This document shows, in pieces, positions 43,565-45,922 of a stretch of DNA of 64,000 nucleotides. The first letter of the stretch is position 1, and each line of letters starts with the position of its first letter. The translations under genes were made by a program, and so were the position numbers. Source of the stretch: Pyrinomonadaceae bacterium (GTDB lineage: Bacteria > Acidobacteriota > Blastocatellia > Pyrinomonadales > Pyrinomonadaceae); NCBI GenBank assembly GCA_035572035.1, contig DATNBH010000070.1, forward strand, positions 37,813 through 101,812, read 5' to 3'. Under the pieces are notes generated by a model, which saw only the letters and a program-made list of their open reading frames with translations, did not search any database and was not told where the DNA came from.

Positions 43565-45922
43565 TTATGTCGTTAATGTTTTAGCAAAATCTTGAAGCCT
43601 CGTTCTGGCACCTTCGTTGATGTGAGGATGGTCGGTTGAAGGTAGTAACACTTCATCATTAAGTGTCTGGAAGTCAATACCAATCCAAGGTGCCACAGGA
43701 CCGTTTGTTGAGAGCCACTGAAGGTATTCCAGTCTTTCTAGCCGATGGATGAGAATTGGTAGGGACTCAATGTCCTGCCCTCGTAATGTACAAGTGGTTT
43801 GAAACTTCATGAAGAAGTTCGCAAAATCGCCACGGGTGAGTTTCTTCTGCTCTTTGACTTCAATAATTAGCAGCGCCGGTTTCCCGGTTTCCATCTCAAG
43901 GCCTTCAATAATAATGTCTGGGGTCTTATCTGACTTTACTGCTGCTTGGCTGAAACCCGTGATCTTGTGTTGCCAGTCAATTTGATATTCCGAATTTGAA
44001 GGGATGACCTTGGGGCTATCCATAAGCGCGATCAGTCTCTTTATAGGGAATGTGCCAAGGCCGTGAGTCTCATACGGATTGAGTAACCATAACAAGAGCA
44101 ATTCGAGATCTCTTCCTCGAATTACTCGAATACTTAGCTCCTGCAGCTGCTTTGCATCGACTTCGCCGGGTGCATCGATCATCAAATCGGCTGCCGAAGC
44201 AGTCTTGGGAAATGCAATTACGTCTCGCATGTTATCGGTTCCGGCCAAAACCATCATAAGCCGATCGATGCCCGGGGCGATGCCGCCATGCGGCGGAGTT
44301 CCAAACGCCAAAGCGTCCATGAAAAACCCAAACCTTTGACGCGCTTCTTCGAGCGTCATTCCCAACGCTTTGAAAACCAAACGCTGGACGTCCTGCCGGT
44401 GAATTCGGATGGAACCACTCGCCATTTCGACACCATTGATCACCGGGTCATAGGCTTTCGTTCGAATCGTTCCGAGTAGATTCGTTTCGCCGCCATCAAC
44501 GGCGCGCGAAAGCAGCTCGACGTCTTCATCCACCGGTGAGGTGAAGGGATGATGCATTGAATAGAACCGCCCGTCCTCCTCGTGATATTCAAACATCGGG
44601 AAATCCGTCACCCAGAGTGGGGCGTATAAGTTTTCCTTAATAAGTTTTTCGCGCTTCGCTATTTCGTTCCGTAACGCACCAAGACTGGCCGTAACGACCT
44701 TTGCTTTTCCCGCTACGATCAAAACAGCGTCGCCGTTCTGAGCGCCGGCGGTCGCAGCCATCTGAGCAACAACGTCGGCGCCAAGCGCTTTTAGCAAAGA
44801 TGAAGTCACCTCATCTCCTAGTTTGATCCAGGCAAGCGCACCGGCGCCGTAACGTTTCGCGAACTCCTGAAGATCATCGAGCACCTTTCGCGACATTCCC
44901 GCTCCGTTGCGTACCACCAGCGCCTTAATACTGCCTTTGCCTTCGAGCACGGCTGCGTAAGGCGCAAAGGTTGTTTGCGCAACCGGACCGGAAACATCCT
45001 TGAGCTCCATGCCCTCGATGCGTAAGTCGGGCTTGTCTGATCCAAAACGGTCCATCACTTCAGCGAAGCTAAATCTTGGAAACGGCACGGGCAGGTTGAC
45101 ATCGATCAAACGAAAGACACGAGCGAACAATCCTTCGATCAGCGAGTAGATTTGCTCGAGAGTGGCGAAACTCATCTCTACGTCGAGTTGAGTGAATTCC
45201 GGTTGCCGGTCGGCTCGCAAATCTTCATCTCGAAAGCAGCGCGCGATCTGAAAGTATTTGTCCAGACCGGCGATCATGCACAGCTGTTTGAAAAGCTGCG
45301 GAGACTGGGGCAAGGCAAAAAACTTTCCGGGTTGAACTCGTGCCGGAACGATATAGTCTCGGGCGCCTTCCGGCGTTGACTTAATCAACACCGGCGTTTC
45401 GATCTCAGTAAAGCCGCGCTCGGTCATGTAACTGCGAATCTCGGTGAGCACGCGATGACGCAAACGCAGATTTGCTTGGAGCTGTGGCCGCCGCAAGTCA
45501 AGATAACGATATTTCAGCCGCAGATCCTCGCTTGCCAGTCCTTCCGAACCTGCAGTTTCGAGCTGAAATGGAAGTGTGCGAGCATCGTTCAAAATCAGCA
45601 GCTCACTTGCGCGCACTTCGACATCACCAGTCTGTAGTTTCGGATTGCGTGAACTCTCGTCCCGCAAAACCACGCTGCCGGTCACCGCAATAACGTATTC
45701 GCCTCTAACATCTTTTGCTTTTCCGTGCGCATCACCGGTTTCTTCTGCGTTGAAGACAACTTGAGTGATGCCGTCGCGGTCTCGCAAATCAAAAAACGTG
45801 AGCACGCCAAAGTCTCGACGGCGAGCCACCCAGCCCATCAGCGTCACGGTCTCGCCAACATTTTCTTTCCGCAGAGCGCCACAAGAATGCGTGCGCTCCA
45901 AATTTCCAAGGTTATCCAACAT
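43565..45922 (-). CDS. aspS: Aspartyl-tRNA synthetase with in-frame roughly 184-aa low-GC C-terminal extension
   Basis: Class II aaRS body including motif 3 [16 protein letters not shown]...AFPKT. Instead of terminating after ELSIRVI, the frame continues through 43565-44116. The extension carries PD...EVK and is about 43% GC. Confidence 0.8.
   Translation of the reverse strand: [785 protein letters not shown]

What the first reader, a model, noticed from the sequence alone, without database searches (positions are those of the whole stretch)
43565..44116. aspS runs on in frame into a roughly 184-aa low-GC C-terminal extension with a PD-(D/E)xK-like motif
The class II AspS C-terminus (..[32 protein letters not shown]) should stop within a few codons. 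Instead the frame stays open for another 184 codons. GC drops to about 43% in this stretch. The extension contains [11 protein letters not shown]-x12[11 protein letters not shown], a PD-x(n)-E-x-K arrangement reminiscent of restriction-endonuclease-fold nucleases. This may be an insertion of foreign DNA at the 3' end of an essential gene, a sequencing or assembly frameshift artefact, or a genuine aaRS-nuclease fusion.
Basis: partly seen in the sequence, partly recalled or inferred. Interest (0 to 1): 0.65.

Follow-up and report, generated by a model that had tools for sequence, protein, structure and literature searches.

The report
aspS fused to nuclease-gene fragment
In this one soil acidobacterium, the essential aspartyl-tRNA synthetase gene has lost its stop codon and reads on into a foreign, truncated piece of a restriction-enzyme-type nuclease gene, which looks like a recent genomic accident rather than a new bifunctional enzyme.

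Summary
The ORF 43565..46096 (- strand) encodes a complete bacterial AspRS, whose true start is M58 at 45925. It then continues in frame for 184 more codons. In 77 of 79 Pyrinomonadaceae relatives aspS stops 1-4 codons after the point where the window diverges, and none of them carries the tail. Two assemblers (MEGAHIT and Logan) give identical DNA across both junctions.

It is only a fragment, covering profile positions 52-213 of 417. It keeps the D...ExK core. It lacks the invariant N-terminal E...HS helix, has the invariant Q changed to D and the conserved Y changed to F, and lacks the whole ~190-aa C-terminal domain.

The best reading is a recent insertion and deletion event that joined a decaying nuclease gene remnant in frame to aspS. 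The tail is probably an inactive passenger. A functional AspRS-nuclease is not excluded but is unlikely. Interest is modest.

The parts
44120..45925 (-). aspS proper: a complete bacterial-type aspartyl-tRNA synthetase of 602 aa, from M58 of the ORF to ...ELSIRVI
   Evidence: NF001750 scores 801 bits (cutoff 443) and TIGR00459 scores 714 bits. Pfam finds OB anticodon domain, class II core and GAD domain. It is 74-82% identical over its full length to 80 Pyrinomonadaceae AspS. All ten relatives inspected start at MLDNLGN.
45926..46096 (-). 57 in-frame codons upstream of the real aspS start. The NCBI gene call (843 aa) includes them, but they are probably not translated.
   Evidence: In relatives the upstream sequence is not conserved or contains stops. 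The ENA gene call is 785 aa.
44096..44127 (-). Junction hairpin: a 12-bp stem (GAGUAAUUCGAG / CUCGAAUUGCUC) with an 8-nt loop, followed by UUGUUAUGGU. The 5' arm is the last aspS codons. The 3' arm is the first codons of the tail.
   Evidence: Inverted repeat I5. The MFE fold contains it. The consensus scan flags it as terminator-like. There is no Rfam match.
44099..44119 (-). 21-nt 'filler' (codons RGRDLEL) between the end of aspS homology and the start of nuclease-family homology. It contains a GAGGAAGAG Shine-Dalgarno-like run and a TTG codon.
   Evidence: Relatives diverge after R-V-[VI]. phmmer, tblastn and HMM alignments to the family all begin at tail residue 8.
43568..44119 (-). 184-codon C-terminal tail. 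It is an internal fragment of a PF14281 (PDDEXK_4) / PADLOC PDC-S26-type nuclease gene and covers family profile positions 52-213 of 417.
43853..43918 (-). Retained catalytic core D68 (43916-43918) ... E87-V-K89 (43853-43861) of the PD-(D/E)xK motif
   Evidence: These columns are 100% invariant in 67 family members and are kept in the tail. The codons were read directly from the sequence.
43565..43567 (-). TAA stop of the fused ORF. It falls right after the last helix of the nuclease domain (...[10 protein letters not shown]), where intact family members continue for a median of 193 more residues.
43131..43547 (-). Prok-JAB / M67 metallopeptidase gene, the conserved downstream neighbour of aspS. 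It starts 17 nt after the tail's stop and marks the right-hand limit of the insert.
   Evidence: tblastn finds it directly downstream of aspS in 78 of 80 relatives. Pfam Prok-JAB is recorded, and the NCBI name M67 family metallopeptidase.

Best explanation
What it is: a fragment of a horizontally acquired, single-gene PD-(D/E)xK nuclease of the PF14281 / PDC-S26 type lies in the variable spacer between aspS and the downstream JAB gene.

How it probably arose: the rearrangement that put or trimmed it there removed three things. These are the aspS stop codon, the first ~50 codons of the nuclease gene, and its C-terminal ~190 codons. The left junction happens to be in frame, which has a one-in-three chance. 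aspS therefore now reads through a 21-nt filler into 177 codons of nuclease-domain sequence and stops just before the JAB gene.

Predicted product: a 786-aa AspRS carrying a folded but probably catalytically dead nuclease-like domain at its C-terminus. The tail is a tolerated passenger, not a selected second activity.

Shown: the continuous ORF in two assemblies; its absence from relatives; foreign composition; family membership as a fragment; loss of invariant residues.

Inferred: the order and mechanism of the events, that the fusion is translated, and that the nuclease is inactive.
For: - Continuous ORF with an intact AspRS part.
- Identical DNA in a 129-kb MEGAHIT contig and in an independent Logan assembly of SRR6185312, across both junctions.
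- 77 of 79 relatives stop 1-4 codons after RV[VI], and none encodes the tail.
- The aspS-JAB spacer varies from -4 to 4754 nt among relatives, so this site accepts insertions.
- The tail's GC3 is 0.467 against 0.585 +/- 0.045 for the host, and its codon score is in the lowest 0.5% of host windows.
- The family-only HMM hits the tail at E 3.3e-12, but only over profile positions 52-213 of 417.
- All 67 family members, including the short ones, have the N-terminal E...HS motif and the Q that the tail lacks or has changed (Q to D, Y to F, S to E).
- The two relatives that seemed to start at the same point are mis-called. Their upstream frame encodes ...RTHTETWHS.
- Intact family members are solitary accessory genes among housekeeping genes, and one is itself frameshifted next to a transposase.
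- Among 68 family proteins recovered from 5.8 billion, only the window's own protein carries AspRS domains.
- AspRS tolerates C-terminal additions. Relatives L049 and L065 have extensions of 30 and 9 aa, and NCBIfam holds an AspRS-GatC fusion model, NF009460.
Against: - The 184-codon frame has no stop or frameshift, and the D...ExK core plus the invariant H19 are intact. AlphaFold models a confident compact domain (pLDDT 89.6). This fits either a very recent event or some retained function.
- A stop inside the tail would be harmless to AspRS, so long-term neutral decay should already have produced one.
- No closer donor sequence was found anywhere, so the age of the event cannot be estimated.
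- Only one sample carries the locus, so selection (dN/dS) cannot be tested.
Confidence: 0.7

Rival explanations
1. Functional bifunctional enzyme. On this view the nuclease-fold domain has been recruited to AspRS. It could be a tRNA- or nucleic-acid-binding or cleaving module, or a defence effector tethered to an aaRS, and the fusion would be maintained by selection.
For: The frame is open with no internal damage. The D68/E87/K89 and H19 residues are retained. The fold prediction is confident. Structural neighbours include defence nucleases such as Hna, Cap4, Can2, Avs and Shedu. Functional C-terminal fusions to AspRS exist elsewhere, such as fungal ErdS, an AspRS-DUF2156 fusion (PMC7334510), and AspRS-GatC (NF009460).
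Against: It is a singleton: absent from 79 relatives and from all other database proteins. The domain is truncated at both ends relative to every family member. The 99-100% conserved E, H, S, Q and Y residues are lost. Its foreign codon usage argues for recent arrival rather than an adapted domain.
Confidence: 0.08
2. Two genes rather than one protein. On this view the fragment was, or is, a separate small gene translated from the TTG at 44099-44101 behind the GAGGAAGAG run. The aspS stop was lost by a point change, for example TGA to CGA at 44117-44119. Much of the tail's expression, if any, would then be independent of AspRS.
For: An SD-like GAGGAAGAG lies 8-12 nt upstream of a TTG (read from the sequence). 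CGA at the first tail codon is one transition from TGA and would give AspS ...RVI*, close to the normal length. The hairpin remains compatible with U at that position.
Against: In the present sequence there is no stop, so ribosomes translating aspS must read through whatever else happens. The apparent precedent for a start at this position (P0001, P0010) is a gene-calling artefact. The SD-to-start spacing is long, and both elements are buried in the 12-bp hairpin. A 178-aa product would still lack the invariant E...HS helix.
Confidence: 0.1
3. Sequencing or assembly artefact. On this view the true genome has a stop at the normal aspS end, or the 552-bp segment is chimeric or belongs only to a minor strain variant.
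For: The genome is a metagenome-assembled genome from a single sample. Out-of-frame TAA codons lie at the normal termination point (GAG TAA in the +1 frame, read), so a 1-nt indel error could hide a stop.
Against: Two different assemblers give 100% identical sequence over 4.6-5.5 kb spanning both junctions. The segment is flanked on both sides by the syntenic genes, so two chimeric joins would be needed. There are no homopolymers or repeats at the junctions that would favour indel errors. A +1 shift would first meet a TAA that truncates AspS 8 residues early, which does not restore the normal end.
Confidence: 0.07
4. Clade-typical AspS appendage, or an internal duplication of aspS. The second idea arose because the [15 protein letters not shown] segment resembles [14 protein letters not shown] at the start of the GAD domain.
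For: tblastn of the tail against relatives' loci gave weak hits inside aspS (E 0.8-9). BLASTP of the tail against its own AspS gave E 0.046 over 15 residues.
Against: None of 79 relatives has the appendage. The local similarity is reached by 39 of 500 shuffles, and there is no DNA similarity. The tail is instead significantly related to PF14281 proteins.
Confidence: 0.01

Closest known systems
PF14281 (PDDEXK_4) proteins, which PADLOC lists as candidate single-gene defence protein PDC-S26 (~390-430 aa)
   Same: There is significant profile similarity (E 3.3e-12). The WLLxPxxxHGL motif, the invariant H and the D...ExK residues are shared. The predicted fold is the restriction-endonuclease fold. 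Like the tail, intact members are patchily distributed accessory genes.
   Different: Only profile positions 52-213 of 417 are present. The N-terminal E...HS helix and the C-terminal domain (median 193 aa) are missing. Q is changed to D and Y to F in the QxxxY-like motif. Pfam's own model does not reach E<=1 on the tail. The tail is fused to AspRS instead of standing alone. The family's function is itself unknown (Steczkiewicz et al. 2012, PMC3424549), and its defence role is only a candidate.
Natural C-terminal fusions to AspRS: fungal ErdS (AspRS-DUF2156, ergosterol aspartylation) and bacterial AspRS-GatC (NCBIfam NF009460)
   Same: A complete AspRS carries an extra folded domain at its C-terminus, which shows that this end tolerates appendages.
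   Different: Those fusions carry complete partner domains whose chemistry uses Asp-tRNA, and they are conserved across many species (780 ErdS sequences, PMC7334510). Here the partner is a truncated nuclease fragment with no obvious link to aminoacylation, and it is found in one genome only.
Deinococcus radiodurans GlnRS with a 215-residue C-terminal YqeY-like extension (PMC1865053)
   Same: A bacterial aaRS that gained a C-terminal extension of about 200 residues derived from another gene (abstract).
   Different: According to that paper's abstract, that extension is a paralog of a tRNA-pathway protein (YqeY/GatB tail). The window's tail is a nuclease-fold fragment that shows signs of decay.
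Chimeric ORFs created by stop-codon loss or deletion next to gene remnants (pseudogene-fragment fusions; general knowledge)
   Same: The tail is a fragment truncated at both ends, with foreign composition, short filler DNA and a quasi-palindrome at the junction, and it is a singleton.
   Different: The recipient is an essential housekeeping gene. The fragment is long (184 codons), still open, and predicted to fold.

Membership tests
Bacterial aspartyl-tRNA synthetase (NF001750 / TIGR00459) | Whole-protein score above the curated equivalog cut-off | tested here: met
   NF001750 scores 801 bits against a cut-off of 443, and TIGR00459 scores 714 against 374. Model positions 3-586 of 590 are matched.
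Bacterial aspartyl-tRNA synthetase (NF001750 / TIGR00459) | Domain order: OB anticodon-binding domain, class II catalytic core, GAD insertion | tested here: met
   PF01336, PF00152 and PF02938 are all present in order.
Bacterial aspartyl-tRNA synthetase (NF001750 / TIGR00459) | Ends a few residues after the last core helix (...L[RK][IV][IV]xx*) | tested here: not met
   77 of 79 relatives stop 33-35 residues after AFPKT, while the window continues to 216.
PF14281 PDDEXK_4 / PADLOC PDC-S26 | Significant match to the family profile | tested here: inconclusive
   An HMM built from 67 family proteins without the tail hits it at E 3.3e-12 and 41 bits. phmmer hits to 12 members range from E 2.5e-10 to 5e-4. 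However, Pfam's own PF14281 model gives no hit at E<=1, and PADLOC PDC-S26 gives only E 0.012. The tail is therefore homologous to the family but falls below the curated models' thresholds.
PF14281 PDDEXK_4 / PADLOC PDC-S26 | Restriction-endonuclease (PD-(D/E)xK) fold | tested here: met
PF14281 PDDEXK_4 / PADLOC PDC-S26 | Invariant D ... E-x-K catalytic residues | tested here: met
   D68, E87 and K89 align to columns that are 100% invariant in 67 members.
PF14281 PDDEXK_4 / PADLOC PDC-S26 | N-terminal helix with invariant E...HS (GRTxTExWHS) | tested here: not met
   The E and H columns (100% conserved) are absent from the tail, and S is replaced by E. A median of 53 residues is missing before the conserved W. 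All short members and the two apparent exceptions do have this helix.
PF14281 PDDEXK_4 / PADLOC PDC-S26 | Q-x3-Y motif after the ExK strand | tested here: not met
   Q (100% conserved) is D98 in the tail, and Y (99% conserved) is F102.
PF14281 PDDEXK_4 / PADLOC PDC-S26 | Full architecture of ~400 aa with a C-terminal domain | tested here: not met
   The tail ends at profile position 213 of 417. Members have a median of 193 residues beyond that point. No remnant of this domain is found elsewhere in the window.
PF14281 PDDEXK_4 / PADLOC PDC-S26 | Nuclease activity or anti-phage defence | not testable with these tools
   The family's function is listed as unknown in the superfamily survey (PMC3424549). 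PDC-S26 is a candidate system only.
Conserved bifunctional aaRS fusion (such as ErdS or AspRS-GatC) | The fusion is conserved across related genomes | tested here: not met
   None of 79 relatives has it. Among 68 family proteins, only the window's own protein (P0015) has AspRS domains.
Conserved bifunctional aaRS fusion (such as ErdS or AspRS-GatC) | The appended domain is complete | tested here: not met
   The appended domain is truncated at both ends.
Intrinsic (Rho-independent) terminator at the junction | GC-rich stem-loop followed by a U tract | tested here: inconclusive
   The consensus scan flags a stem of 13 pairs, but only 5 are G-C, and the tail UUGUUAUGGU is interrupted. Terminator-like sites are not enriched over shuffles (4 found against 4.7 expected). 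The z-score of the 91-nt fold is only -1.74.

The most novel reading that the evidence does not exclude
The tail is a neo-functionalised, N-terminally remodelled PD-(D/E)xK domain that works while tethered to AspRS. It could be a nuclease or nucleic-acid-binding module that targets tRNA or invading nucleic acid, which would link an essential aaRS to a defence-type effector. This would be the first AspRS-nuclease fusion.
Probability: 0.07. Interest if true: 0.75.

Novelty: new variant of a known kind. Interest (0 to 1): 0.3.

Why it matters
If the DNA is right, an essential class II aminoacyl-tRNA synthetase in a free-living soil bacterium carries a ~20-kDa foreign domain on its C-terminus. This is a natural demonstration that this end of AspRS tolerates large fusions. 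It is also a snapshot of how new multidomain aaRS could begin: an accessory or defence gene remnant is captured by loss of a stop codon.

It is a useful annotation warning too. The public record calls the 843-aa product simply 'aspartate--tRNA ligase', with a start 57 codons too early and no mention of the nuclease-like tail.

Because it is a singleton with signs of decay, it does not by itself open a new biological question.

Tried and rejected
1. Internal duplication of the aspS GAD segment ([14 protein letters not shown] against [15 protein letters not shown]). This is not significant: 39 of 500 shuffles reach the score, and there is no DNA similarity.
2. Direct scans of the tail against Pfam, NCBIfam and PHROGs gave no hit. 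PADLOC gave only E 0.012.
3. The word-indexed search of 5.8 billion proteins with the tail alone found nothing. Only the exhaustive phmmer search found distant relatives.
4. The search for a closer donor or a second fusion found nothing. This covered metagenome contigs, IMG/VR, plasmids and phages and the loci of 80 relatives.
5. The idea that the fragment is a natural short form starting at TTG, like P0001 and P0010 (MFLGWLL...), was rejected. Those starts are mis-called, and their upstream frame encodes the missing helix.
6. The junction palindrome as a repeated element or recombination site: the single other exact 12-mer, at 27066, lies inside an ordinary ORF with no partner arm. Matches with up to 2 mismatches are not enriched (9 found against 5.3 expected).
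7. Rfam finds no known RNA family in 42500-46500.
8. P0007, a 970-aa HAD_SAK_2 repeat protein among the phmmer hits, is treated as spurious.
9. The large aspS-JAB spacers in relatives were checked as possible sites of an intact nuclease gene. They hold acyl-CoA-dehydrogenase-like, amidohydrolase-like and GNAT ORFs instead.
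Full report
**Observation.** On the minus strand an ORF runs from 46096 to 43565, 843 codons long. Pfam finds the three AspRS domains: OB fold, class II core and GAD. The NCBIfam equivalog NF001750 scores 801 bits against a cut-off of 443, and its match ends at ORF residue ~658. Relatives all start at MLDNLGN, which is M58 of the ORF at 45925, and their upstream sequence is unconserved or contains stops. The real product is therefore 602 aa of AspRS plus a tail.

After ...ELSIRVI the frame stays open for exactly 184 codons (43568-44119) up to TAA at 43565-43567. 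This is not chance. None of 20,000 shuffles of the tail DNA lacks an in-frame stop, and the other five frames carry 6-16 stops. GC of the tail is about 45%, against 53-57% in the flanks.

**Comparison with relatives.** A scan of one genome per species returned 80 aspS loci. Most are labelled Pyrinomonadaceae and the rest Acidobacteriota or Blastocatellia. They are 74-82% identical to the window's AspRS over its full length. In 77 of 79 readable loci aspS stops 33-35 residues after AFPKT, while the window continues to 216. The two exceptions have short unrelated extensions of 9 and 30 residues.

The gene downstream of aspS in 78 of 80 loci is the same Prok-JAB/M67 metallopeptidase that follows the tail in the window (43131-43547). 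It often lies only 2-8 nt after the aspS stop, or overlaps it. The spacer nevertheless ranges from -4 to 4754 nt, so this is a variable site. The larger spacers hold acyl-CoA-dehydrogenase-like, amidohydrolase-like or GNAT ORFs and never a relative of the tail. The extension is therefore not a clade feature.

**Is it an artefact?** The exact 843-aa protein is in NCBI as HXD33903.1, named 'aspartate--tRNA ligase', from a Pyrinomonadaceae MAG. The locus is present in a 129-kb MEGAHIT contig (ENA) and in a separate Logan assembly of run SRR6185312. Both are 100% identical to the window over 5.5 and 4.6 kb, spanning both junctions. The segment sits between two syntenic genes, so a chimera would need two false joins. 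Reads could not be inspected, so a read-level error or strain heterogeneity remains a small possibility.

**What the tail is.** Direct scans against Pfam, NCBIfam and PHROGs give nothing, and PADLOC gives only a weak PDC-S26 hit at E 0.012. The word-indexed protein search finds nothing. The exhaustive phmmer search of 1.84 billion representatives finds 13 hits from E 2.5e-10 to 5e-4. Twelve of these are proteins of mostly ~400 aa in which the tail aligns to residues ~46-235. They match PF14281 (PDDEXK_4) at E down to 1e-17 and PADLOC PDC-S26 at E down to 1e-28.

A profile search recovers 68 proteins, all PF14281 and typically 390-430 aa. The only one with AspRS domains is the window's own product. 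As a non-circular test I built an HMM from the 67 family proteins without the tail. It hits the tail at E 3.3e-12, with tail residues 8-183 aligned to profile positions 52-213 of 417. No other of the 443 window ORFs scores below E 0.6.

**It is a fragment with signs of decay.** Across 67 family members, H19, D68, E87 and K89 (tail numbering) are 100% invariant, and the tail keeps them. Several other conserved features are lost:
- The E and H of the N-terminal 'E...HS' helix, both 100% invariant, are absent.
- The invariant S is replaced by E.
- The invariant Q after the ExK strand is D98.
- The 99%-conserved Y is F102, and two further conserved Y residues are F.

A median of 53 residues is missing before the conserved W, and 193 residues are missing after the tail's end. 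Every short family member still has E, H and Q. The two relatives that appeared to begin at the same point (MFLGWLL...) are mis-called, because their in-frame upstream sequence reads ...RTHTETWHS. One of them is itself a frameshifted pseudogene beside an IS91-type transposase. No remnant of the missing parts occurs elsewhere in the window.

**Origin.** The tail's GC3 (0.467 against 0.585 +/- 0.045 for host ORFs) lies in the lowest 1% of host 184-codon windows, and its codon-preference score lies in the lowest 0.5%. This indicates horizontal acquisition that has not yet been ameliorated. Intact family members are solitary genes lodged between housekeeping genes, next to PIN toxins or other accessory genes. 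That fits a mobile single-gene accessory or defence candidate. PF14281 has no known function (PMC3424549), and PDC-S26 is only a candidate defence gene (PMC11551731).

**The junction.** aspS homology ends at R-V-I, and family homology starts at tail residue 8. The 21 nt between them (RGRDLEL, 44099-44119) are filler of unknown origin. Together with the last aspS codons they form a perfect 12-bp hairpin with an 8-nt loop (44096-44127). It contains two direct copies and one inverted copy of ATTCGAG and is followed by UUGUUAUGGU.

The consensus scan calls the hairpin terminator-like, but the stem is AU-rich, the U tract is broken, and such sites are not enriched in the region. I regard it as a scar of illegitimate recombination, a quasi-palindrome with filler DNA. 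That is an inference. The palindrome does not recur as an element elsewhere, and Rfam has no match. The filler also contains GAGGAAGAG upstream of a TTG, so internal initiation is conceivable but unsupported.

**Mechanism and verdict.** The most likely history has two steps. First, a PDC-S26-type nuclease gene landed in the variable aspS-JAB spacer. Second, deletion or recombination removed its 5' ~50 codons together with the aspS stop, and also its 3' half. The left join fell in frame by a one-in-three chance. The cell now makes, by inference, a 786-aa AspRS with a folded but probably inactive nuclease-like appendage. AspRS tolerates C-terminal additions, as shown by the small natural extensions in relatives, the AspRS-GatC model NF009460 and fungal AspRS-DUF2156 ErdS (PMC7334510).

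Against pure decay, the frame is still open and the D...ExK core is intact. The event is therefore recent, or some function persists. I give the relic-fusion reading 0.70, separate or internal expression with point loss of the stop 0.10, a selected bifunctional enzyme 0.08, an artefact 0.07, and a clade appendage or internal duplication about 0.01.

**Novelty and interest.** I found no other AspRS-PD-(D/E)xK fusion in the databases or in the paper library, so the domain combination is a new variant of the known theme of aaRS with appended domains. It is a singleton with a truncated, degenerate partner, so the interest is modest (0.3). The most novel reading not excluded is a working AspRS-tethered nuclease or nucleic-acid-binding module. 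It has a probability of about 0.07 and would merit about 0.75.

Noticed in passing
window 45926-46096 (-): The public annotation (HXD33903.1, 843 aa) starts aspS 57 codons too early. All ten relatives inspected start at MLDNLGN (M58, 45925), with stops or unconserved sequence upstream. The ENA gene call is 785 aa.
   Followed up: yes
window 43131-43547 (-) and loci L001-L080: The order aspS then Prok-JAB/M67 metallopeptidase is conserved in 78 of 80 Pyrinomonadaceae loci. The two genes are often 2-8 nt apart or overlapping, which suggests an operon or translational coupling. The functional link between them is unknown.
   Followed up: partly
loci L042, L080, L065, L070, L076, L074, L027, L079, L067 (between aspS and JAB): The aspS-JAB spacer is a variable spot, ranging from -4 to 4754 nt. 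In some relatives it holds acyl-CoA-dehydrogenase-like (~400 aa), amidohydrolase-like (~465 aa) or GNAT ORFs.
   Followed up: partly
L049 7708-7902; L065 7711-7842: Two relatives have short natural C-terminal extensions of AspS, of 30 and 9 residues (L049: ...RIDDLEERPAPNVESRNTRLHRETQDEPRRQTEPS). They are unrelated to the window's tail.
   Followed up: no
L086 2099-3126 (NCBI GCA_002754885.1) and L088 106-1197: P0001 and P0010, two of the tail's better phmmer hits (P0001 the best, P0010 tenth), have mis-called starts, because the conserved N-terminal helix lies in frame upstream. P0001 is also split by a frameshift into 206 and 132 aa and sits near an IS91/Y2-type transposase, so this family does decay in other genomes.
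   Followed up: yes
window 44096-44132 (-): Three copies of ATTCGAG (two direct, one inverted) lie within 35 nt at the aspS/tail junction. They form a perfect 12-bp hairpin around a GAAGAGAU loop. This may be a scar of a template-switch or illegitimate recombination event, but the origin of the 21-nt filler is unexplained.
   Followed up: partly
window 27066-27077 (+): A second exact copy of the 12-mer GAGTAATTCGAG lies inside the ORF 26381-27469, against about 0.008 expected by chance. It has no palindromic partner and no extended similarity, so it is probably a coincidence.
   Followed up: partly
protein P0007: A 970-aa protein with four HAD_SAK_2 repeats appeared among the phmmer hits at E 3.4e-5, matched over 49 residues. 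It has no PF14281 domain and was treated as a spurious or repeat-driven match.
   Followed up: partly
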